Positions 1,588 through 12,275 of a DNA stretch of 64,000 nt are shown here, piece after piece. Origin of the DNA: a virus (lineage: Duplodnaviria; Heunggongvirae; Uroviricota; Caudoviricetes); the IMG/VR virus record IMGVR_UViG_2529292906_000009, positions 1 to 64,000 of that record; one strand, given 5' to 3'. Position 1 is the stretch's first letter. Each line of letters begins with the position of its first letter. The position numbers and the translations under genes were made by a program. Below the pieces are notes generated by a model. The model saw only the letters and a program-made list of their open reading frames with translations. It ran no database searches and had not been told where the DNA came from.

Positions 1588-3072
1588 TTATTCATTAAGC
1601 CATGCCAGAGCTTCATCAACCTGCGCTTCGTCTTCGACGCTAAGCACTTCATCCTGGGGAACATAATCCGCCAGCATAGCGAAACAATATGTATCCCAAT
1701 GGTCTGGTGAGTGCAGGTTGAGTTTTTTCTTCATATCCTCCTTACTCATCACCTTCCATTGACCTGCGGAGTTAATCCCTACAGGGATTTTCGACGCTTC
1801 CTCAATAGTTTCATTACCCTTATCCAGTCTCATACGACCAGATTTTACGGCCTCTGCGGCTTGAACGTTGGCATAAGCACGTTTATCAAAGTACAGGCTC
1901 TTATCTTCACGGCTATGCATCTTTTTACCCCAGCGTATACGCTGTACGGTAATACCATAATACTCGTACATCAGATCCGCCGTTGCTTTACCCAGCCCAT
2001 CGCCGTCTATCGCTATGGTGATATTTGGGAATCGCTCAGGATTACATTCTGCGAAAATTTTGGCGGCAAGCTGCGTTTCTGTAACGTCTGTGTATTCCAG
2101 CATTCGATAGTTGATTACACGGCGTTTATTTCTCTGGCCGGACACCATCATGATATTGATAACGGACTTATCCCGTCCCGTACCACCAGCAACGTCCACA
2201 CATGCAAGCCAGCCCCATCCTTTGGCAATCTTGACTTTCCGCCGCGTCGCACGTTCAACCTCATCACGTCCAAGAAGGAAGCCATCCTGTGATTTAGGGA
2301 ATAGTCCGCGTACCTTAATCATGTACATAGGGTTATCACGCCCGCCGTACTCCGCCAGCTTCATTTTGATAAATGCTGGCGTTACCAGCGGTGATTCCTC
2401 ACTGTTAAGCGTGATCGCCGTATAAACGCCATCAGGGTTACCAGGACGCTTGGCCAGTTTATGGTGAGTATCGTAGAAATAGCCGCTTGGGCGTGTAGGC
2501 TGTGACAGTAATAAGATGCGGTTATCCTGTCCGGTAAGAGCACCGGTGATGATACCGAAAGCTCTATCACTGACACCGGAGGCTTCATCGATAATATACA
2601 GAAGATGATCTGCGTGTTCACCGGCGAGAGCTTCTTCACTTCCCAGACGAAAGCCCTTCGGTACTACAGTCCATACACCTTTACCAGTAACCTCATAGAA
2701 AGCGGTTTCTGTCAGAACAAAATAATCAGCAAGCCATGGAAAACGGCTGGTGGCAGTAGCCCAGTTTATCTTGATGTACTTGAATATACCGGTCATTACC
2801 TGCTGAATTTTGTTCGCAACGATAATGGCGCGGGCACCGGGATACATGATTATGAACAACATGATCATGATAGAAGTCATGTCTGATTTCCCGGTACCGT
2901 GACCAGACGAAACAGATGTCTTGCTACCCTGTTCCTGCACAGACTCAATAATCAGATCCTGCTGCCAGGTAGGTGTTTTGCCGAACAAAACATCAGCGGC
3001 AGCAATCCAGTCATAACGATATAGCGCCACCAGCTCGCGCCAACGTGGATCCGTTACGCAACTTCTGGCCAT
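1588..3072 (-). CDS. pacB: terminase large subunit (494 aa)
   Basis: Terminase large-subunit fold recognised; start overlaps pacA stop; size equals recalled P1 PacB. Confidence 0.85.
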
Positions 3073-4265
3073 TAATCATCATCCCCGTATAGCTTGCGGG
3101 TAACTTCTTCGTCTTCCTCCTCGTCTTCGTCCAGGTCTTGTTCCAGCCATGGGTCGTTTGATACACCTTCAGTATCAACATCTCCATAACCGCCTGTATC
3201 AACGATATCGGCGATTTCTTCCCTACGCTGCTCAATCCACAATGCGGCATCGGCGCGGCGGTTGGCGGCCCGTTCTCGCGCAACTTTGTCCAGATCTTCA
3301 AGAGAAGGGCCACCGACGGCTGTTTGCCTTTCCTCATCATCGGTATTGGTCTTAGGAGCACGCAGATCGGCTTTGATTTGCTCCAGCATCAGGGGCGGCA
3401 CTTTTCCGCCATGCGCCTCGATGAATTCAGCTGCTTCCAGCACTGACCAGTTATTTTCACGCTTTCGTTCGTATGCCAGCTTAACAATGCCAGCTTGCCC
3501 CATAGATAAAGCGTGCTTTTCCGCCTCCCGGCTTTCTTTTCGATAGTTATTCCGGATGCTGTAAATGGTGTTGATCAGGCTGCTTATCTGCGCGGAACAG
3601 CTGTTTAGCATGCTCGCGATACGATATTCAGGCGGAGTCCCTTCATCATCGTCTTTTTGCTGATCGCGCATTTCCTGCACCAGACGAATACACGTATCCC
3701 TGGCGTTCTCCAGCATAAGGAGATGAGAAAGAGACTTTTCCAGAAGAGTGGTTTCCAGAACATCGGCCCCGGACCGACGCAACATAGCGCGCGCGGCCTT
3801 CCGCGCTTCAACGTTATCTATCAGGTAATCGCCAGCTTCGAATTCAAAGCGTTCACCATCATCATCCAGGGTGTCGCGTTCCAGGCGATCACGTAAGGTC
3901 CGGTGGGCGCGGGTGATCACGTCATGATCATCAGAACGATCATTTATGCGCTTATTTTGGCGCTTCGCATTCTCGACTGCGGCACTGACAACGGCATTAA
4001 CCCTTTGTTTTTCCGCTATTTCAGCCGCAATGTGATCACCTGCATGTTGATCATTAGAGTGATCAATGATCATGCTTTTTAGTGGCTTCCTGACTGGCTT
4101 ATTTGGCTTGCGGCTGTCCGCTGTCCTGGTGTCTTCTTTGAAGGCACGGAGATAACGACGTGCAGTATTAGGGTTAAGATTAAACTCGGCGGCATACTGT
4201 GCGATGGTGTAACCACCATCTCGCGCCAGGCGAGCAAAATTCTTCTTGTGATCGTCCCAGGTCAC
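3072..4265 (-). CDS. pacA: terminase small subunit / pac recognition protein (397 aa)
   Basis: 397-aa ORF with acidic C-terminus upstream of pacB; contains the GATC-rich pac site in its 5' third. Confidence 0.8.
3880..4075. promoter_or_regulatory. pac: pac packaging site: two clusters of four GATC-containing TGATCA-type hexamers
   Basis: GATC at about 3888, 3915, 3926, 3938 and at 4033, 4049, 4060, 4068 inside pacA; matches the known Dam-methylation-regulated P1 pac architecture. Confidence 0.6.
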
Positions 4266-4350
4266 TTATGCTTCCTTTCGTAAAAACTCTTTTTGACGCG
4301 AGGGTAACGAAAGTCACATGTCAAAAGGCCCGGAACGGGCAAGCAATCAA

Positions 4351-4803
4351 TCAGATACGTGCGGATGTGGCATTACCGTAATGACGGTGCTGACGGGCCA
4401 CCTTATTGAAAAGTTGACGCGCCATTACCCAAGGCTGGTGCTCCCGGCGTTCCTTTTCGTCCTGCGTCATATAGAGTTCGTTCTGGAGTTTTTCATCAAA
4501 CCGGCGCGGAGCGCGGCTACGGCGAAAGAATTCAGGATTCAGAGAGTGGATCTGAAATCTACGTGGGCGTGTACTGTCATCAATCAAAACAGACGAATAC
4601 TTAGACACAGCGATAGCCTTTAAGCGCAGATAAACATCGCGCTTATCGACATCCAGATGCGGGTATTCCTTTTCAAGAATTGCTGCGAGTTCTTTCGCTG
4701 ATAGAAGAGATTTAGTGCGGATCATGTAATCCGCAATCTCGTACGATGTTATTCGTGAGTGATTTATTTCCATGAAGTGGCGTCCCTGCCAGTTAAGTAA
4801 CAT
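4351..4803 (-). CDS. lpa: late promoter activator-like protein (start may be the internal Met at 4773)
   Basis: About 140-150-aa ORF immediately upstream of pacA with a C1 operator just upstream; positional match to P1 lpa. Confidence 0.5.
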   Translation of the reverse strand: MLLNWQGRHFMEINHSRITSYEIADYMIRTKSLLSAKELAAILEKEYPHLDVDKRDVYLRLKAIAVSKYSSVLIDDSTRPRRFQIHSLNPEFFRRSRAPRRFDEKLQNELYMTQDEKERREHQPWVMARQLFNKVARQHRHYGNATSARI

Positions 4804-4873
4804 CCTGTCACCTACTGATTAGCCCATGTCAACTAATCAACGTGGAATATAATACCCTCGATTAAAGAAATAG

Positions 4874-4890
4874 CAATACATTAGAGCAAT
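4874..4890 (-). promoter_or_regulatory. C1 operator (14/17) upstream of the lpa-pacAB transcription unit
   Basis: caatacattagagcaat read directly. Confidence 0.5.
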
Positions 4891-4891
4891 T

Positions 4892-5935
4892 TTATCTAAC
4901 GCTCGACGAGTGACTTGTGATAGCGCCGACTCCAAGCGCGTAATCAAAGAACAATCGTTGATGCATCGCCAGCCTACCGTGCGTCTTCTCCCAATTATCG
5001 CGGTCACGCTCAATATCACGCTGGCATGACTGGCACAGAGGAATAGCATAAATGTCATGCGCGCATAATCGACTATGACGAACGATATAAGGCGTAATGT
5101 GAGCGCCAGCTCCCGCAGCTCCACAGCCACAGCATGGACGGGAAGCCACAAAGTCCATGTACTCGGGCAATTTTAGCGATTGAAGTTTTGGTATTTTGAA
5201 ATGCGCCATACCTGGGTCGGAGTCAACATCCACAGGGCATACTTTTGCACGCATCGGCGCGGCGCGTTCTTCCATCATCTGAACATATGCTGTAGCGCGA
5301 TCGTCATACGGGCGAATATCCGCCTCTTTCAGAGGTCCGCTATCCTGCGGAGTAGCCTTCATCTTATTTATTGATATGCGGCAGACTTCTTCCGGCATCA
5401 GGTGCATCATGTTGCGCATGAAAGCCCACCAGCACAGCTCCTGAATACTTAAATCATGGCTATTTGAAAGGCCCATTTCCTGACGGGCGACATCCAGTAT
5501 CCAGTTAACGCGATTATTGTGCAGCGTTTCTTTCAGCTCATTAAAACCACGCATCCGGTAATGGTTATCGTGATGCCAGCACAACAACACCGCGCTATTG
5601 TCTCGTTCAGCGTGGACAATATGGTTGTCACACCAACTACGATCTGCGGCCTGGCATTGACCCTCTTTCCTACGCAACCACGCCACCAGCGCGTCAATTC
5701 CACCAATACGGCGAAACAGTTCATCGCTGTTAAAAAACGGCTGCAACGCCTCATTTGTTGCCATGGTTTGCTCGGTAACAACGAGGCCGTCTTCCATGTG
5801 CTCGATTAACTCACGCGGCACCGGCTCCATGATAAATTTACGGCCAGCCTCCACCAGCTTTCTGACCTCCTGATCCACTTTGAACGTGGCGAGGCCAAGC
5901 TCTTTCTGTACAAAGGGAGTAATTACGGCTTTCAC
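4892..5935 (-). CDS. hypothetical protein with Cys-rich C-terminal region (pdcB position)
   Basis: 347-aa ORF between doc and lpa; clustered Cys/His near the C-terminus; name only by synteny with P1. Confidence 0.5.
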
Positions 5936-5962
5936 ATCACACCTTTAATCACTGATTGGGCT

Positions 5963-6142
5963 TTATCTGCTGCCCGGCATTCTCTGTTTAAGCACAACCA
6001 TTTCCTGACGGCATAACACAGCAATAGCGGTCCTGACTCCAATTTGCTTACCAACCAGGTATTGCTTTACCTTGCGGCGACTCACGCCATCAAGAAGCAT
6101 CTTTAACGCTTCACGGGACAATTTGTTGTATTTGCGTGCCAT
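5963..6142 (-). CDS. small basic protein (pdcA position)
   Basis: About 59-aa ORF just downstream of doc; start chosen at the internal Met. Confidence 0.35.
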   Translation of the reverse strand: MARKYNKLSREALKMLLDGVSRRKVKQYLVGKQIGVRTAIAVLCRQEMVVLKQRMPGSR

Positions 6143-6146
6143 TAAT

Positions 6147-6527
6147 CTACTCCGCAGAACCATACAATCTACGTAACGTGTCGGCGACAGAAGATACAGA
6201 TATCTCGCCAGTCGCAGCGCCTACAGTAAGGTCTGCCAGTTCAGGTGAATCAAATACCTGCACCCCGTTACGGCGTAGAAATAGCAGCGCACTGTTTAGC
6301 GCGGTACGCTTATTGGCATCATTGAATATATGCCCTCTCGCTGTAGCCACCAGGTAGGTGGCGGAGACTTCGAAAAGGTCGGTGATCTCTTCGTAGGCAA
6401 CTCTGGCCTGAACTCTCCCGATAATGGCCTCTGCCCTACCCGGATCTGACATTCCCGGCAGGCCGCCGTAGCGGCTTATATTCGCATCATGAAGCGCAAT
6501 AAGTTCTTCCGGTGATATATGCCTCAT
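6147..6527 (-). CDS. doc: Doc toxin (Fic/Doc family), 126 aa
   Basis: Sequence recognised as P1 Doc (death on curing); coupled to phd. Confidence 0.85.
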
Positions 6528-6748
6528 TATCGGTTAACCAGTTCCTTGTTGGTGGAGTCCAGGGTGTCAAACAGGGATGCAAATTCAGCATCCAGCGCCG
6601 CTTTTTTGTAGGCTTCGAAAGTAGCCTTGCTGACAATTACTGCTGGCTCACGGCCTCTGCGGGTGATTTCAACCTCTTCCCCGGCTTCAACATTGTTGAG
6701 CACTTCAGAAAGGTTGCCACGCGCGGTACGGAAGTTAATGGATTGCAT
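6527..6748 (-). CDS. phd: Phd antitoxin (Phd/YefM family), 73 aa from the second Met
   Basis: [16 protein letters not shown]... recognised as P1 Phd; stop overlaps doc start. Confidence 0.85.
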
Positions 6749-6820
6749 AAACACCTCGTGTACTCGTTATGTGTACACAATTATAAACTTCACAGGCATA
6801 AAGCACCAGCACTTTGCAGC

Positions 6821-7210
6821 TTAAATAACCGGACAATCATCAAATTCCCCACTTCGGGCATCATTGATGACATGAGTGATCACACCAAAAACAGCATTAC
6901 TGCCCGTGTATCCATCGTCATCTACTGGTAACGCCTCTTTCTTCCCGGTGCTTAAATCCTCCAGGTGCTGGCGCGGATACTTCCTGTATCTCTTTATGCG
7001 ATATTCACCCTCCATAGCGCACACAAGCAGAGAACCATCAACCGGAGTAAGCGAGGAATCAACCACCAGCAAAGCACCCTGCAATATTCCCTCACGGTGA
7101 TGGCTATCAGCTGCCCGCATGAAGTAGGTTGCTGATGGATGCCTGATTAGTTGCTGATCAAGAGAAATTCGGCTTTCAACATAATCCGCCGCAGGAGAAG
7201 GGAAGCCCAT
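6821..7210 (-). CDS. humD: UmuD'-like S24 peptidase-fold protein lacking the N-terminal autocleavage arm
   Basis: Aligns to E. coli UmuD from the post-cleavage Gly onward (GFPSPAADY...); catalytic Ser and Lys positions conserved; LexA box 20 bp upstream. Confidence 0.8.
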   Translation of the reverse strand: MGFPSPAADYVESRISLDQQLIRHPSATYFMRAADSHHREGILQGALLVVDSSLTPVDGSLLVCAMEGEYRIKRYRKYPRQHLEDLSTGKKEALPVDDDGYTGSNAVFGVITHVINDARSGEFDDCPVI

Positions 7211-7229
7211 AGCGTTTTCACCTCAATAA

Positions 7230-7249
7230 TACTGTTCATTTATACAGTA
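7230..7249. promoter_or_regulatory. LexA (SOS) box TACTGTTCATTTATACAGTA
   Basis: CTGT-N8-ACAG palindrome, close match to the E. coli LexA box consensus; in the divergent intergenic region between humD and 7385..8326. Confidence 0.7.
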
Positions 7250-7384
7250 TACATTAAAGAGACACCTTTGGTGCAAACGCGTTACGTACATCAACCACCG
7301 CTGATGATTTTGTGCTCTTTGCTACTATTCATCACCAACGGATCAGCGTAACCTCGTTGCCAATCAGTTAATAAGGAATTAGCT

Positions 7385-7969
7385 ATGCCTAATCGCATTC
7401 CTCTCGCTCCTGTATTGCCCAAAAATTTTGACTGCACTCCTAACGAGAAACGCTCTAAAGCTCAGCTGGACGCCTGGTGGGACCATCCATATGGGGTTAC
7501 ACAACCTGACGGGAAAATTGTAGTTTATTGTCTGAATGGTGGGGCGTGGGACCGTCCATCCGTGCTTTGTTTGGCAGATAACTATGATGAAGCCTGTGAA
7601 CTTGCCGAAAGACAGCAGGCAAGCTGGGTAAAAACACGGTCTGAACCGACATTCATGTTTTCAAAAGAACCGCCATTTATACTGGCGAGGATGCCGCAGC
7701 GACCGGATCATCAACAAGAAATTGTTGCTGAATTTTCCTCTAGGGATGAGATGAATCTCTTCTCATTAAAGCAGGAAGAAAGGGATCGCGTCGAAGTGTC
7801 TCCAACTCTCGACCACAACCGGATGAACCTGGCCCAACTCGCCTGGTACAGCAAAGAATTAGAGATGTCTATTGCCCGACTTGAAAACGAAAAAGCCGCT
7901 ATCCAAGCCCAGCATGAAGTAGTTCTGAACCGGATTAGAGAAATGCAAAACGATAACAGGGGATTTTGA
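7385..7969 (+). CDS. hypothetical protein (194 aa), first gene of a two-gene module downstream of the LexA box
   Basis: Long ORF starting 135 bp from the LexA box; stop overlaps the next start (TGAATG); no recognisable domain. Confidence 0.5.
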   Translation: MPNRIPLAPVLPKNFDCTPNEKRSKAQLDAWWDHPYGVTQPDGKIVVYCLNGGAWDRPSVLCLADNYDEACELAERQQASWVKTRSEPTFMFSKEPPFILARMPQRPDHQQEIVAEFSSRDEMNLFSLKQEERDRVEVSPTLDHNRMNLAQLAWYSKELEMSIARLENEKAAIQAQHEVVLNRIREMQNDNRGF

Positions 7970-8326
7970 ATGGCTAAAATCGAGTACCATCGCGATCGCG
8001 GTAATTACCTGGAAATATACGATCATGAATCTCTTAACGATATCAACGATGCGTTATATGAATACTGTGAAAAAACGAGCATCACAGATGCACCTGATGC
8101 ATTTGTCGAGCTACCGGTATATCTCCGCGACATCTATGCAATACGAACACCGCCCGTATCGGTGATCCACATTGGCTATGTCCGCCTGTCCATCGAAGAA
8201 GATGAAGATCGTTATATCGTGCGCCACTATACATTGGACAGAAAAGAACTTCCTAATGAATGGAACATGAGTAATTTCTACAACGGTGAATATGGCTTAA
8301 AATCCACTAATAATTTACGGTCATAA
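7970..8326 (+). CDS. hypothetical protein (118 aa), coupled to 7385..7969
   Basis: ORF starts on the stop codon of the upstream gene; no recognisable domain. Confidence 0.5.
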   Translation: MAKIEYHRDRGNYLEIYDHESLNDINDALYEYCEKTSITDAPDAFVELPVYLRDIYAIRTPPVSVIHIGYVRLSIEEDEDRYIVRHYTLDRKELPNEWNMSNFYNGEYGLKSTNNLRS

Positions 8327-9188
8327 TCTATACAGGCATGTATAACAACAACGAGCCTATTAGCTGTCAACAACGTTATTTTCTCAAATAAGAAAAAGCA
8401 GAAAACAAATTGTTTAAGGTCACAAATTGTGGCCTTGATGGAGGAGGGAGGCTTATTGGCTATGGCTAAAAATCAAATTAGACACTTCATGTTGCTGTAG
8501 CTCATCAAGATCCGAGGCCACAAAACCTTTTCCGAAAAACTTCACAAGTAACTCACTAGCCGCATCATTGTCACCTATTACACGAAAGTCATACGGCAAC
8601 GTCGCAAGTTGACGATGTAATCCTGCTGAGAAAGTCGAATCTAACAGCGACCAGAATTCCCACCGCAGGATAATACTCGCCTCTTAATACTGTATATATG
8701 TTGTTACGATATGTTTTTCTGTCTCTAAAAAAAGATGTTAATAGAATGCTAACCATTGAAGGGGATAAAAATATACAATTCCAACAAACGTTATTTTTAA
8801 CAATTTTTTTCTTTGCGTTGACTTTCCCGGACACCTTGTCTGACCGAAGGTGCGCGAAAGCCACTTTTTCCTTCCTGAGTTATCCACAAAGTTATGCACT
8901 TGCAAGAGGGCCATTTTCTACATATTGTGGTGGCTAACAGATGAAATGAATGTAGATTAATTGAAGATAAGGAGAAAATTTGAGATGCAATCATGACGTT
9001 AATAGATAGGGTCTGCATTACAGACCCCATCCGCATCAAGGAATTAGCCGTTCCCTGATGTTGTTCCGAAAACATGTGCCGTAAGCTCACGTTAACGACT
9101 TTCTTTCACCGAATCCAACTATATAGGGGTTGGGTTTCTACGTCAACGTGAGCAAGTGCTCCTTTACATTTGACAAGGAACCACCTTA

Positions 9189-9326
9189 ATGACTGCTTTT
9201 TTTCAGTTCCTGAGTGCATTTTTAGATGCGCCTGTTATTAGCCAGATTCTGGCGATCATCCTCATCATCGTTTTGATTTTGCTTTTAAGGTCAGTAAAAA
9301 ATGGAATTATGCACTGGCTTACTTAA
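9189..9326 (+). CDS. small hydrophobic peptide (45 aa), possible membrane peptide
   Basis: MTAFFQFLSAFLDAPVISQILAIILIIVLILLLRSVKNGIMHWLT; AGGA 9 nt upstream; lies in an AT-rich region without long ORFs. Confidence 0.25.
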   Translation: MTAFFQFLSAFLDAPVISQILAIILIIVLILLLRSVKNGIMHWLT

Positions 9327-9400
9327 TGTTCAGTGAAACATTAAAATCTCCTTGATGTGGAAACAATCATTTTCTGTATGTGCTGGTGGGTACCTGTAGT

Positions 9401-9757
9401 TCAGCTTTCGTTGGCATTTAACTTCGTCTTTGCTTTCTCCACCAGCAACTTCCAGATGCCTATTTCATTAGCAGCCGCCTTGATGGCGGCATAAAAAGCA
9501 TCTTGCTGATCGTAACGCTGAATCTGTTTTTTCAGTTTTGCCTCCACCAATTTAATTTCATTACGTGCTTTCTGAAGCCGAAGCGCCGCCCGGTTACGTC
9601 TGTTCTTGTATAGCGCGTTAATCTCTGACAATTGCTTTAATTTACCAGCCTGACTGCGGATTATCGCCTCTCTGACTTCTGCCGTGCGTCTCATCTGATC
9701 TCTTAAGAGTTCACCGTTTTCGATAATTCTTTCAAGGTGTTTGATGTGATCTGCAAC
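9401..9757 (-). CDS. hypothetical protein, 5' end separated from its native start by IS2
   Basis: Frame continues from native ATG-AGA-GTT at 11099-11091 across the IS2 insertion; the first 9 codons of the tracked ORF come from the IS2 end. Confidence 0.45.
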   Translation of the reverse strand, partial: VADHIKHLERIIENGELLRDQMRRTAEVREAIIRSQAGKLKQLSEINALYKNRRNRAALRLQKARNEIKLVEAKLKKQIQRYDQQDAFYAAIKAAANEIGIWKLLVEKAKTKLNANES

Positions 9758-9768
9758 TGGATTTGCCC

Positions 9769-10674
9769 CTATATTTCCAGACATCTGTTATCACTTAACC
9801 CATTACAAGCCCGCTGCCGCAGATATTCCCGTGGCGAGCGATAACCCAGCGCACTATGCGGATGCCATTCGTTATAATGCTCGAACGCCTCTGCAAGGTT
9901 CTTTGCTGCCGTTAACCCGTCTGGTTTGGGCATGATACTGATGTAGTCACGCTTTATCGTTTTCACGAAGCTCTCTGCTATTCCGTTACTCTCCGGACTC
10001 CGCACCGCCGTGTTCTTCGGTTCAAGTCCCAACATCCGGGCGAACTGGCGTGTTTCATTAGCCCGGTAGCATGAACCATTATCCGTCAGCCACTCCACTG
10101 GAGACGACGGAAGATCGTTGCCGAAGCGGCGTTCCACCGCTCCCAGCATGACGTCCTGTACTGTTTCACTGTTGAAGCCGCCGGTAGTCACCGCCCAGTG
10201 CAGTGCCTCACGATCACAGCAGTCCAGCGCGAACGTGACACGCAGTCTCTCTCCGTTATCACAGCAGAACTCGAACCCGTCAGAGCACCATCGCTGATTG
10301 CTTTCTTTCACGGCCACTCTGCCTGTATGTGCCCGTTTCGATGGCGGTACAGCAGGTTTTCGCTCAAGCAACAGCGCATTCTGGCGCATGATCCGGTAAA
10401 CACGTTTGGCATTGATCGCAGGCATACCATCAAGTTCTGCCTGTCTGCGAAGCAGCGCCCATACCCGACGATAACCATACGTGGGCAGCTCTCCGATAAC
10501 ATGGTGTATACGGAGAAGCACATCCGTATCATCAGTGTGACGACTGCGGCGGCTATCCATCCAGTCATCGGTTCGTCTGAGAATGACGTGCAACTGCGCA
10601 CGCGACACCCGGAGACAACGGCTGACTAAGCTTACTCCCCATCCCCGGGCAATAAGGGCGCGTGCGCTATCCAC
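9769..10674 (-). CDS. insD: IS2 transposase OrfB (301 aa)
   Basis: Sequence recognised as IS2 InsD (DDE integrase domain). Confidence 0.9.
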
Positions 10675-10997
10675 TTTTTTGCCCGTCCATATTCAACGGC
10701 TTCTTTGAGGAGTTCATTTTCCATCGTTTTCTTGCCGAGCAGGCGCTGGAGTTCTTTAATCTGCTTCATGGCGGCAACAAGTTCAGAGGCAGGAACAACC
10801 TGTTCTCCGGCGGCGACAGCGGTAAGACTTCCTTCCTGGTATTGCTTACGCCAGAGAAATAACTGGCTGGCTGCTACACCATGTTGCCGGGCAACGAGAG
10901 AGACCGTCATCCCCGGTTCAAAGCTCTGCTGAACAATTGCGATCTTTTCCTGTGTGGTACGCCGTCTGCGTTTCTCCGGCCCTAAGACATCAATCAT
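10632..10997 (-). CDS. insC: IS2 OrfA (121 aa, HTH)
   Basis: [18 protein letters not shown]... recognised as IS2 InsC; overlaps insD in the -1 frame as expected for programmed frameshifting. Confidence 0.85.
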
Positions 10998-11095
10998 CTG
11001 TTCTCCAATGACTAGTCTAAAAACTAGTATTAAGACTATCACTTATTTAAGTGATACTGGTTGTCTGGAGATTCAGGGGGCCAGTCTAGCAACTC

Positions 11096-11773
11096 TCATA
11101 CTTCACCCTCGCTTGTATCGCCAGCATCCACCAGCGGCAATAAAGCCCTGGCCATCTTATGAACCAATAGTGCATCAATAATGCCAAGCGTATGCCCCGG
11201 CTTAATGTTTAATGCCGCCTCAAGGTGACACCTTTCCAAGCCACTTTTCTCGGCTTGTTTATGATGATCTGGCGTAATAACGTCGCCCAAAACACGGCTA
11301 ATTCTTTCTCGTAATTGCTGGGTGCCCGCACACTTGATCGCTGTATCGTGGAGACGGTTAACCAGTTCGCGATAAACATGCGGTTTAATGCGGATACGTT
11401 CACCGGTGACGCCCTTTCCTGGCCCTGGCACCGAACTATCCGGAATATCCGGATAGTTGCCAGCCTCGTAAGCTACCCGCAGCCAGTGCATGAATGTTTC
11501 CGCAGACACACAACCGCAGTCCACATCGATTTCCCCGCGTTGCTGCTCCAGCCATTGCTCAAAATCTAACTTGTAAGCATCACTTCCAAGTTGCTCTTTT
11601 TGTCTCAATGTCAGCACCTGTTGGGCTAGTTCCAGAACGATACCGGGTGACGCTAACCTCTCAAATTCCAATAAATAGTTTGCGTCTGGATGACAAGTAG
11701 CTTCCCCTGCAAAAAATACCAGTTGCTGTAAGTATGCTGTCGTTATTGCGGTCATAACTTTATCTCCTTGCAT
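11096..11773 (-). CDS. hypothetical protein (225 aa)
   Basis: ORF whose stop overlaps (ATGA) the native start of the IS2-interrupted downstream gene. Confidence 0.5.
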   Translation of the reverse strand: MQGDKVMTAITTAYLQQLVFFAGEATCHPDANYLLEFERLASPGIVLELAQQVLTLRQKEQLGSDAYKLDFEQWLEQQRGEIDVDCGCVSAETFMHWLRVAYEAGNYPDIPDSSVPGPGKGVTGERIRIKPHVYRELVNRLHDTAIKCAGTQQLRERISRVLGDVITPDHHKQAEKSGLERCHLEAALNIKPGHTLGIIDALLVHKMARALLPLVDAGDTSEGEV

Positions 11774-11982
11774 GGTTCGCCTTTACGGCAAACAGCTACA
11801 CGGTCATTTCTTACATTAACCACAGTCACCGTTCCGTCATCGCATTGAATAACGATGAAAGGGTGTTCATTCTCTTTTGTGCAATGTTGCTGTTCCCCTG
11901 CTGTAACAGTGAGGGGAATTAATAAAATAATAATTACTGCGAATTTACTAAATGTTGTCATAGCAATCTTTCTGTTTTTCAT
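11752..11982 (-). CDS. small secreted protein (signal peptide)
   Basis: N-terminal basic region followed by a hydrophobic stretch ending TVTA-GE; 4 Cys in the mature part. Confidence 0.45.
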   Translation of the reverse strand: MKNRKIAMTTFSKFAVIIILLIPLTVTAGEQQHCTKENEHPFIVIQCDDGTVTVVNVRNDRVAVCRKGEPCKEIKL

Positions 11983-12275
11983 TATGGTTGAATCCAGTTA
12001 TCTTCAATAGCAATGCTCAATCTTTGTAACCATTCTGCTAATTTCAGCATTGCTTCTCTTTCGCTTAAACCACACGGAAAATCATCAAGCGATATTGTTG
12101 GCTTGAAGTTTCCCAAATTATCCATTTCAACGGTCAGATTTTGCTCCAGCACGGTATTCCTTACGCGGCTATTGTGCCGAAGCAAATATACTGAACGTGA
12201 TTTATTGGTTTTGTGGTCGAACGTATATTCGGTAAGTATCATCTGGCTTCCGCCATGATTATTACCGCGCCACAT
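11982..12275 (-). CDS. hypothetical protein
   Basis: ORF in the same-strand operon array; start uncertain. Confidence 0.4.
   Translation of the reverse strand: MWRGNNHGGSQMILTEYTFDHKTNKSRSVYLLRHNSRVRNTVLEQNLTVEMDNLGNFKPTISLDDFPCGLSEREAMLKLAEWLQRLSIAIEDNWIQP

What the first reader, a model, noticed from the sequence alone, without database searches (positions are those of the whole stretch)
7211..8326. Strong LexA box controlling humD and a divergent two-gene module of unknown function
TACTGTTCATTTATACAGTA (7230-7249) is a near-consensus CTGT-N8-ACAG SOS box in the divergent region between humD and two translationally coupled ORFs (194 and 118 aa, TGAATG junction). Neither resembles a family I can name; the 118-aa product is not theta-like, so it is not the hot gene that P1 carries in this neighbourhood, and the first ORF may or may not correspond to P1 lxr. 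An SOS-induced operon on a temperate phage-plasmid could encode a damage-triggered toxin, an induction modulator or a replication accessory.
Basis: partly seen in the sequence, partly recalled or inferred. Interest (0 to 1): 0.6.

Follow-up and report, generated by a model that had tools for sequence, protein, structure and literature searches.

The report
Known P1/P7 humD SOS box, lxr cassette
This is the already annotated LexA (SOS) operator of the phage P1/P7 humD gene, next to two known but uncharacterised P1/P7 genes (lxr and upf93.6); the comparative evidence ties the operator to humD, not to the two-gene module.

Summary
TACTGTTCATTTATACAGTA (7230-7249) is the only LexA-type box in the 64-kb window; it matches 17 of 20 consensus positions, and none of 100 shuffles gave such a match. 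It lies between humD (6821-7210, minus strand) and two adjacent plus-strand ORFs. None of this is new. The window is a P1/P7-type phage-plasmid, and P1 and P7 records annotate this LexA site. ORF1 is P1 Lxr (94% identical) and P7 Upf94.2. ORF2 is P7 Upf93.6, which reference P1 lacks.

The new point is that the box travels with humD. All 55 humD-containing loci have it, with invariant CTGT/ACAG arms. Six P1-like loci that carry full-length lxr (four also ORF2) but no humD lack it. Two non-P1 phages carry humD plus the box without lxr. The box overlaps the candidate humD promoters, and the best lxr promoter candidate lies about 74 bp downstream. SOS control of lxr-upf93.6 is therefore an untested inference.

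Lxr has a conserved N-terminal domain with no Pfam, NCBIfam, PADLOC or fold match. That domain is widespread on proteobacterial plasmids (469 cluster representatives). P1-like elements add a C-terminal coiled coil. ORF2 is optional, so a toxin-antitoxin pair is unlikely. Function remains unknown.

The parts
6821..7210 (-). humD, which encodes a pre-truncated UmuD'-like protein of 129 aa
   Evidence: ORF. Pfam Peptidase_S24 E=5.7e-9. PHROG 811 'UmuD-like' E=4e-55. 99-100% identical to P1 and P7 HumD.
7219..7224 (-). humD Shine-Dalgarno sequence (GAGGTG on the minus strand)
   Evidence: Read directly from the sequence. It lies 8 nt upstream of the ATG at 7210.
7230..7249 (.). LexA (SOS) box TACTGTTCATTTATACAGTA
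   Evidence: Annotated as protein_bind LexA in P1 NC_005856 and P7 NC_050152. Arms are invariant across 18 distinct versions of the intergenic region. Present in 55 of 55 humD-containing loci and upstream of humD in the lxr-less phages CMS-2020a and Cyrano.
7246..7276 (-). Candidate sigma-70 promoter of humD: -35 TGCACC/TTGCAC (7270-7276) and -10 TATACT (7251-7246). The -10 overlaps the right arm of the LexA box.
   Evidence: My own consensus scoring. In silico only. The tool's stricter scan found no promoter here. A second minus-strand candidate (-10 TATTAT, 7231-7226) also overlaps the box.
7320..7328 (+). Candidate extended -10 promoter of lxr (TGcTACTAT), about 57 nt upstream of the lxr ATG and about 74 bp downstream of the LexA box
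   Evidence: Top-scoring plus-strand candidate. Invariant in all 18 versions of the intergenic region. In silico only.
7385..7969 (+). lxr (P7 upf94.2), 194 aa: conserved alpha/beta N-terminal domain (about residues 1-131) plus a long C-terminal helix (149-192)
   Evidence: 94% identical to P1 Lxr. PHROG 6164, function unknown. AlphaFold2 pLDDT 88. Family alignment A1. 469 cluster representatives in the profile search.
7970..8326 (+). P7 upf93.6 homologue, 118 aa, acidic (pI 4.8), function unknown
   Evidence: 98-100% identical to P7 Upf93.6 and P1-like homologues. PHROG 5797, function unknown. Only 18 homologue clusters, all from enterobacterial records or unnamed metagenome sequences, except one labelled Bacteroides. 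Weak model, pLDDT 63.
8664..8716 (.). Decayed second copy of the humD 5' end, leader and left half of a LexA box (CCGCAGGA|TAATACTCGCCTCTTAATACTGTATA|TATGTTG)
   Evidence: blastn against CMS-2020a and Cyrano: their leader-plus-box segment matches both window 7211-7259 and window 8670-8716. The relic is present in 17 P7-type loci and absent from reference P1.

Best explanation
The 20-bp palindrome is the SOS operator of humD. LexA bound at 7230-7249 sits over the -10/+1 region of the humD promoter, immediately upstream of the humD ribosome-binding site. HumD is a UmuD'-like subunit that needs no RecA-mediated cleavage, so it is made only after DNA damage inactivates LexA. This humD-plus-operator unit is a portable module. 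The divergent genes lxr (upf94.2) and upf93.6 form a separate two-gene accessory cassette that lies beside that module in P1/P7-type phage-plasmids. The cassette is most likely transcribed from its own promoter near 7320-7328, outside the LexA footprint. If so, it is probably not under tight LexA control.

Lxr itself is an acidic protein. Its conserved N-terminal domain belongs to a large uncharacterised family carried by plasmids and phage-plasmids across Proteobacteria. In P1-like elements a coiled-coil tail is added, presumably for oligomerisation. I infer that Lxr acts through protein-protein contacts in a plasmid or prophage maintenance or host-interaction role, with Upf93.6 as an optional accessory partner. 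I do not think it is a DNA-binding regulator or a toxin.

Shown here: the identity of all parts, the linkage of the box to humD, and the family distribution. Inferred: the promoter positions, the independence of lxr from LexA, and the molecular role of Lxr.
For: Identity of the parts.

The box is non-random.

Linkage of the box to humD:
- 55 of 55 loci with humD have CTGT-N8-ACAG at the same place.
- 6 of 6 P1-like loci with full-length lxr but no humD (L016, L124-L128) have none. Four of these keep ORF2 directly downstream.
- The humD-less loci have a different, conserved lxr-proximal upstream region.
- CMS-2020a and Cyrano carry humD (93% amino-acid identity) with a LexA box at the same offset and no lxr. 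Their homology to the window ends near 7259.
- A decayed copy of the leader and half-box follows ORF2 at 8664-8716, so lxr-ORF2 sits as a block between an intact and a relic copy.

Selection on the box: the arms are invariant, while 5 of 8 spacer positions vary among 18 versions.

Geometry: both minus-strand promoter candidates overlap the box, and the best plus-strand candidate is at 7320-7328.

Lxr family: alignment A1 with invariant WWDxP and CLNGGxWDR motifs; 469 representatives; contexts on Pseudomonas plasmids, Klebsiella phage-plasmids, Bradyrhizobium repABC plasmids and large enterobacterial plasmids, none with a LexA box next to the gene.

Lxr properties: pI 5.3; no DNA-binding domain found.

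ORF2 is optional: 125 of 242 matching plasmid records cover at least 80% of the query, which requires ORF2 as well as lxr; the gene-content classes are.
Against: - All promoter calls are weak consensus matches. The tool's own scan found no promoter in the intergenic region, and no transcription start data were available.
- P1's curators named lxr 'LexA regulated function' and described the site as lying in the regulatory region of both lxr and humD. A weak plus-strand candidate (ATAATA-N18-TACATT, 7226-7255) does overlap the box, so bidirectional repression is not excluded.
- The humD-positive loci are all close relatives (the intergenic region is mostly over 95% identical). The 55 of 55 count therefore reflects few independent events. 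The independent cases are the six humD-less loci and the two lxr-less phages.
- The proposed role of Lxr rests on context and composition only. Fold searches gave nothing significant.
Confidence: 0.65

Rival explanations
1. Bidirectional SOS operator: one LexA dimer at 7230-7249 represses both humD and the divergent lxr-upf93.6 operon, so the two unknown proteins are SOS-induced. This is the reading in the P1 annotation and the first reader's reading.
For: The P1 record annotates the site as 'in the regulatory region of lxr and humD' and names lxr 'LexA regulated function'. The box is the only LexA-type site in the 175-bp divergent region. A weak plus-strand promoter candidate, -10 TACATT at 7250-7255, abuts the box.
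Against: lxr homologues without humD never have the box. humD keeps the box without lxr. The box lies 136 bp upstream of the lxr ATG but only 20 bp from the humD ATG. The best lxr promoter candidate is about 74 bp downstream of the box. I found no expression data for lxr in the held literature.
Confidence: 0.3
2. lxr-upf93.6 is a toxin-antitoxin pair or a damage-triggered toxin module.
Against: - There is no match to any Pfam, NCBIfam or PADLOC toxin or antitoxin model.
- The pair is not obligate. Reference P1 and many relatives carry lxr without ORF2. ORF2 homologues follow an unrelated 320-aa protein on Salmonella plasmids. Hundreds of Lxr-N homologues are stand-alone genes.
- lxr knock-down in P1 has no effect on plaque formation (PMC10695390).
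- The stop/start abutment is not conserved in divergent pairs, which have a gap of 14-15 nt.
Confidence: 0.07
3. Lxr is a DNA-binding transcriptional regulator, as the NCBI product name suggests. It would autoregulate or modulate humD or prophage induction.
For: NCBI records name most family members 'DNA-binding protein'. A perfect 9-bp palindrome lies upstream of lxr in the humD-less elements L016 and L124, which could be an autoregulatory operator. Many distant relatives carry an N-terminal helical hairpin extension.
Against: No NCBIfam or Pfam model supports the name. No HTH, RHH or other DNA-binding fold was detected in a confident model. The protein is acidic throughout (pI 5.2-5.6). No comparable palindrome exists upstream of lxr in the window.
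Confidence: 0.1

Closest known systems
Bacteriophage P1 humD-lxr region (NC_005856: LexA site 87545-87564, humD, lxr)
   Same: Same doc-phd-humD-LexA box-lxr layout. The DNA is 98.3% identical over window 6100-7919. The box core CTGTTCATTTATACAG is identical. HumD is 99% and Lxr 94% identical.
   Different: P1 Lxr is 190 aa and has a different C-terminal tail over the last ~15 residues. P1 has no upf93.6; the theta-like hot gene abuts lxr on the opposite strand. P1 lacks the half-box relic.
Bacteriophage P7 upf94.2-upf93.6 (NC_050152)
   Same: Identical gene order and 99.0% DNA identity across the whole query. The LexA site is annotated ('regulation of humD expression'). Upf94.2 (194 aa) and Upf93.6 (118 aa) correspond to ORF1 and ORF2. 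The relic is present.
   Different: P7 has an IS903 insertion downstream of upf93.6 that the window lacks.
E. coli umuDC-type SOS operator controlling a UmuD-family gene
   Same: A CTGT-N8-ACAG palindrome with perfect TACTGT/ACAGTA arms lies immediately upstream of a UmuD-family gene. The logic is LexA repression relieved by DNA damage (established knowledge of the SOS regulon).
   Different: There is no umuC partner. The product starts at the residue equivalent to the first residue of processed UmuD', so it needs no cleavage. This rests on the sequence MGFPSPAADYV and on my recollection of McLenigan et al. 1999, which is not held in the library. LexA binding was not tested here.
humD-plus-LexA-box module of phages CMS-2020a and Cyrano
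   Same: HumD is 93% identical. The box TACTGTATACACATACAGTA lies at the same offset from the start codon.
   Different: No lxr or upf93.6 follows. The sequence after the box continues directly into the region that, in the window, lies after the relic at 8670.

Membership tests
LexA (SOS) operator, gammaproteobacterial type | Palindrome CTGT-N8-ACAG with an A/T-rich spacer | tested here: met
   TACTGT TCATTTAT ACAGTA: both 6-nt arms are perfect, 7 of 8 spacer bases are A/T, and 17 of 20 positions match the consensus. 0 of 100 shuffles gave such a match.
LexA (SOS) operator, gammaproteobacterial type | Overlaps or abuts the promoter of the regulated gene | tested here: inconclusive
   Both minus-strand (humD) promoter candidates overlap the box. 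For lxr only a weak candidate does. All calls are in silico, and the stricter scan found none.
LexA (SOS) operator, gammaproteobacterial type | Evolutionary conservation of the arms | tested here: met
   Arms are invariant in 18 distinct versions while 5 of 8 spacer positions vary. They are also conserved in CMS-2020a and Cyrano.
LexA (SOS) operator, gammaproteobacterial type | LexA binding and derepression on DNA damage | not testable with these tools
   This needs EMSA or footprinting and expression assays. As I recall, Lewis et al. 1994 reported LexA binding at the P1 site, but that paper is not held and I could not verify it.
UmuD'/HumD (peptidase S24 family) | S24 domain and near-identity to P1 HumD | tested here: met
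   PF00717 E=5.7e-9. 99-100% identity to P1 and P7 HumD.
P1 Lxr / P7 Upf94.2 | Sequence identity and synteny (divergent from humD across the LexA box) | tested here: met
   94% identity over 189 aa to P1 Lxr, 98% to P7 Upf94.2, and the same position.
P7 Upf93.6 | Sequence identity and position immediately after upf94.2 | tested here: met
   98% identity to P7. Annotated at the same place.
Hot / DNA polymerase III theta | Similarity of ORF2 to P1 Hot | tested here: not met
   tblastn with P1 Hot finds no match in window 3001-12000. In class (b) loci hot is a separate gene on the opposite strand after ORF2.
Type II toxin-antitoxin pair | Obligate co-occurrence of the two genes | tested here: not met
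   lxr occurs without ORF2 in P1 and in many other loci. ORF2 occurs with an unrelated upstream gene. Lxr-N homologues are stand-alone genes.
Type II toxin-antitoxin pair | Match to a known toxin or antitoxin family | tested here: not met
DNA-binding protein (NCBI product name for Lxr homologues) | A recognisable DNA-binding domain or a basic surface | tested here: not met

The most novel reading that the evidence does not exclude
The Lxr N-terminal domain defines a large family with no Pfam coverage and possibly a new fold. It is carried by plasmids, phage-plasmids and integrated elements across Alpha-, Beta- and Gammaproteobacteria, and its conserved WWDxP / CLNGGxWDR surface suggests a specific target or catalytic site. 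In P1/P7 elements the domain gained a coiled-coil tail and an optional partner (Upf93.6), and it may have come under SOS control by landing beside the humD operator. Under this reading it is a damage-induced host-manipulation, anti-defence or plasmid-establishment factor.
Probability: 0.15. Interest if true: 0.55.

Novelty: already known. Interest (0 to 1): 0.22.

Why it matters
As a finding it matters little. The LexA site, humD, lxr and upf93.6 have been in the P1 and P7 annotations for about two decades.

Two side results have modest value:
- The name 'LexA-regulated function' for lxr appears to rest on position alone, and the comparative data here argue that the operator belongs to humD. 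That affects how P1-like phage-plasmids are annotated and how their SOS regulon is counted.
- Lxr's N-terminal domain is a widespread, strongly conserved protein family of mobile elements with no Pfam or NCBIfam model and no detectable structural relatives. It is a reasonable target for functional screens such as plasmid stability, anti-defence or RecA/SOS modulation.

Tried and rejected
- Pfam, PHROGs, NCBIfam and PADLOC scans of both proteins gave only unknown-function PHROGs.
- PDB sequence searches with single sequences and with profiles gave nothing below E=0.05.
- The search for domain fusions among long Lxr-N relatives found only a sub-threshold match of an N-terminal hairpin to Glyoxalase_8.
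- Rfam found no known RNA in 6700-9000.
- Literature: the P1 primary papers (McLenigan 1999, Lobocka 2004) are not held. The held papers give only the gene names and the non-essentiality of lxr and humD in a CRISPRi screen. Ronayne 2016 lists a humD qPCR primer pair and used humD among its non-C1-controlled genes during thermal induction, but has no SOS data on it.
- I first read locus L132 as humD plus box joined to a different lxr homologue. The alignment showed it is the same lxr interrupted after about codon 75, so I withdrew that argument.
- I rejected the idea that the 320-aa protein upstream of the Salmonella ORF2 homologue is an Lxr relative (BLASTP E=3.8).
- I did not compute a heterology index, because I do not have the reference site table and would not rebuild it from memory.

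Full report
**What is there.** Window 6147-8326 reads, left to right:
- doc (6147-6527, minus strand; Fic/DOC domain)
- phd (6527-6754, minus strand; PhdYeFM)
- humD (6821-7210, minus strand; Peptidase_S24)
- a 174-bp intergenic region that contains TACTGTTCATTTATACAGTA at 7230-7249
- a 194-aa ORF (7385-7969, plus strand)
- a 118-aa ORF (7970-8326, plus strand) that starts on the base after the first ORF's TGA

**Is the box more than chance?** The 16-nt core CTGT-N8-ACAG alone is not rare: 1 was found and 0.77 are expected per 64 kb. The full TACTGT-N8-ACAGTA is rare, with 0.05 expected at up to 1 mismatch. A match to the 20-nt LexA consensus with up to 3 mismatches never appeared in 100 dinucleotide-preserving shuffles. 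It is the only such site in the window.

**Identity of the region.** The window is a P1/P7-type phage-plasmid.
- Megablast of 6100-8900 gives 99.0-99.4% identity over the full length to Salmonella phage SJ46, several 'Punavirus P1' records and phage P7. It gives 98.3% identity to reference P1, but only as far as window 7919.
- In P1 (NC_005856) the palindrome is annotated as protein_bind LexA, 'LexA binding site in the regulatory region of lxr and humD'. The divergent gene is lxr, 'LexA regulated function'.
- In P7 the site is annotated 'regulation of humD expression', and the two ORFs are upf94.2 (194 aa) and upf93.6 (118 aa), both of 'unknown protein function'.
- ORF1 is 94% identical to P1 Lxr over 189 residues and differs mainly in the C-terminal tail.
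- ORF2 has no counterpart in reference P1, where the theta-like hot gene lies on the opposite strand directly after lxr. tblastn with P1 Hot finds nothing in the window.

Its open question about lxr is answered: ORF1 is lxr. By its own refutation criterion, both ORFs are homologous to named P1/P7 genes, although those genes are uncharacterised.

**Are the ORFs real genes?** Yes. Against homologues of 57-69% amino-acid identity, synonymous sites are saturated (pS 0.73-0.93) while pN is 0.19-0.27, and length is conserved. Each ORF has a Shine-Dalgarno sequence (AAGGA before lxr, AGGGGA before ORF2).

**Which gene does the box serve?** I collected about 145 loci that encode Lxr relatives or humD and tabulated humD, the box, ORF2 and hot for each.
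- All 55 loci with humD next to lxr have CTGT-N8-ACAG at the same position.
- The six P1-like loci that have a full-length Lxr (64-69% identical) but no humD (L016, L124-L128) have no box. Four of them keep an ORF2 homologue (57-58% identical) directly downstream. Their lxr-proximal upstream region is conserved among themselves and differs from the window's.
- Of the 73 short Lxr-N homologue loci tabulated, from Klebsiella, Pseudomonas, Burkholderiales, Hyphomicrobiales and Sphingomonadales, none has a box next to the gene.
- Conversely, two non-P1 phages (CMS-2020a and Cyrano, about 108 kb) carry a humD that is 93% identical, with TACTGTATACACATACAGTA at the same offset from the start codon and no lxr. 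Their homology to the window stops at about 7259, just beyond the box, and resumes at window 8670.
- The leader-plus-box segment of those phages matches the window twice: once at the intact site (7211-7259) and once at a decayed relic (8664-8716). The relic keeps a few humD codons, the leader and the left half-box; a 13-bp deletion removes the start codon and an 11-bp deletion removes the right arm. The relic is present in 17 P7-type loci and absent from reference P1.

humD plus its operator is therefore a portable unit. lxr-ORF2 (with about 340 bp more) lies as a block between an intact and a relic copy of that unit's 5' end.

Within the humD-containing set, 18 distinct versions of the intergenic region exist. 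The CTGT and ACAG arms never vary, while 5 of the 8 spacer positions do, which makes the spacer the most variable stretch of the region. That pattern is what selection on a LexA site predicts.

A caveat applies. The humD-containing loci are close relatives, so the truly independent evidence is the six humD-less loci and the two lxr-less phages.

**Promoter geometry (in silico only).** The tool's strict scan found no promoter in the intergenic region. A relaxed consensus scoring gave these candidates:
- Minus strand: TGCACC/TTGCAC (7270-7276)-N18/19-TATACT (7251-7246), whose -10 overlaps the right arm of the box.
- Minus strand: TGTATA-N16-TATTAT (7231-7226), which overlaps the left arm.
- Plus strand, best candidate: an extended -10 TGcTACTAT (7320-7328). 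It is about 57 nt upstream of the lxr ATG and about 74 bp downstream of the box, and it is invariant in all 18 versions.
- Plus strand, weaker candidate: ATAATA-N18-TACATT (7226-7255), which abuts the box.

The box is 20 bp from the humD start codon and 136 bp from the lxr start codon. The P1 record places its predicted PhumD about 480 bp upstream of humD, inside lxr, which I find less plausible than a promoter at the box. I conclude that the box is the humD operator with high confidence. Its control of lxr-upf93.6 is unproven and, on balance, less likely than not.

**What are Lxr and Upf93.6?** Neither protein hits a Pfam, NCBIfam or PADLOC model. PHROGs places them in the unknown-function families 6164 and 5797.

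Lxr:
- The word-index search returned 122 homologue clusters. Full-length forms (190-198 aa) occur in P1-like elements of Enterobacteriaceae.
- The first ~125 residues also occur as stand-alone proteins of ~130-145 aa on plasmids and phage-plasmids of many Proteobacteria. The invariant residues include WWDxP and CLNGGxWDR.
- A profile search of 1.84 billion representatives found 469 relatives at E <= 1e-3. Many have a ~60-aa N-terminal helical hairpin, and some reach 300-400 aa, but none has an informative Pfam fusion.
- Contexts are heterogeneous. On ~47-kb Pseudomonas plasmids a small ORF is followed by Lxr-N and an overlapping resolvase, next to RepA and a Fic/VbhA pair. On Klebsiella phage-plasmids the gene sits alone between replication and recombination genes. 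On Bradyrhizobium plasmids it is divergent from repABC. On other plasmids it lies in arrays of small unknown ORFs.
- AlphaFold2 gives a confident model (pLDDT 88): an alpha/beta domain (residues 25-131) plus one long helix (149-192).
- Lxr is acidic (pI 5.3). NCBI's product name 'DNA-binding protein' has no model behind it that I could find.

Upf93.6:
- It has only 18 homologue clusters. The named ones are enterobacterial apart from one labelled Bacteroides heparinolyticus; many are unnamed metagenome sequences.
- It is acidic (pI 4.8), its model is weak (pLDDT 63), and it has no fold match.
- It is optional. 125 of 242 matching plasmid records cover at least 80% of the 7211-8326 query, which requires ORF2 as well as lxr.
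- Gene content downstream of lxr falls into four classes: lxr-ORF2, lxr-ORF2-hot, lxr-hot, and lxr alone.
- On Salmonella ccdAB plasmids its homologue follows an unrelated 320-aa protein.
- The TGA|ATG abutment is not conserved in the divergent pairs, which have gaps of 14-15 nt.

These facts argue against an obligate two-component system such as a toxin-antitoxin pair. A CRISPRi screen scored both lxr and humD as non-essential for P1 plaque formation (PMC10695390). I found no functional study of lxr in the held literature.

**Mechanism I commit to.**
- LexA represses humD at 7230-7249. DNA damage relieves the repression, and HumD is produced. HumD already has the UmuD' form, so it needs no processing. 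That HumD substitutes for UmuD' is established knowledge from McLenigan et al. 1999, which I cite from memory because the paper is not held.
- lxr-upf93.6 is a neighbouring accessory cassette with its own promoter.
- Lxr most probably works through protein contacts made by its conserved N-domain surface, oligomerised by the coiled coil, in some maintenance or host-interaction role common to many proteobacterial mobile elements. Upf93.6 is an optional helper.
- The first part is well supported. The Lxr part is inference of low certainty.

**Novelty and score.** The feature as reported is already known and annotated. Two useful residues remain: a correction (the 'LexA-regulated' label on lxr is positional and is probably owed to humD) and the recognition of a large uncharacterised Lxr-N family. 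Interest is low to modest.

Noticed in passing
window 8664-8716: A decayed second copy of the humD 5' end, leader and left half of a LexA box (TACTGTATA, then an 11-bp deletion). It is nearly identical to the CMS-2020a/Cyrano version and bounds the lxr-ORF2 block on its far side. It is present in 17 P7-type loci and absent from reference P1.
   Followed up: partly
window 7236-7243 (spacer of the LexA box) and the equivalent position in L077, L078, L085, L095, L122, L123: The 8-bp spacer of the box is the most variable stretch of the whole humD-lxr intergenic region (7 spacer variants, 5 of 8 positions vary), while the arms are invariant. This may tune LexA affinity.
   Followed up: partly
L016 3305-3326; also L124: A perfect 9-bp palindrome, TTTGTTTGT-N4-ACAAACAAA, lies upstream of lxr in humD-less P1-like elements. 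It could be an operator for an unknown regulator. The window has no equivalent.
   Followed up: no
L004-L007 5790-7040: On ~47-kb Pseudomonas-type plasmids the Lxr-N homologue sits in a three-gene unit: a 66-67-aa ORF, Lxr-N (135 aa), then a serine resolvase whose start overlaps the Lxr-N stop. The unit is next to RepA_C and a Fic/VbhA pair. The layout loosely recalls multimer-resolution operons.
   Followed up: no
L012-L015 about 2750-4345: On Salmonella ccdAB plasmids the Upf93.6 homologue (114 aa, 55% identical) follows unrelated 81-aa and 320-aa proteins with no Pfam match. Upf93.6 therefore partners with different upstream genes.
   Followed up: partly
P0144, P0147, P0151, P0171, P0173 (remote Lxr-N relatives): Many remote relatives carry an N-terminal ~50-aa helical hairpin (motif ...AK.LAKRDGISHSEALE..AR..GF.SWHEL...). 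It gives a sub-threshold match to the N-terminal segment of Pfam Glyoxalase_8. Some relatives extend to 300-400 aa with unassigned C-terminal regions.
   Followed up: partly
L132 about 3225 onward: In one IMG/VR contig lxr is interrupted after about codon 75 by unrelated sequence, probably an insertion. humD and the box are intact.
   Followed up: partly
L021 and L022 at 2400-2415: A CTGT-N8-ACAG (CTGTATATGGCCACAG) lies about 600 bp upstream of the Lxr-N homologue in Pantoea and Pseudocitrobacter contigs. It is too far away to be assigned to that gene, and I did not examine it.
   Followed up: no
L001 4089-4115 (equivalent to window 7688-7714, minus strand): The P1 record places its predicted humD promoter inside lxr, about 480 bp upstream of humD. 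That would put the LexA box far downstream of the transcription start. The candidates adjacent to the box found here seem more plausible.
   Followed up: partly
window 9401-10674, minus strand: Two overlapping minus-strand ORFs (127 and 301 aa) look by eye like the two ORFs of an IS3-family insertion sequence. I did not test this with any tool.
   Followed up: no
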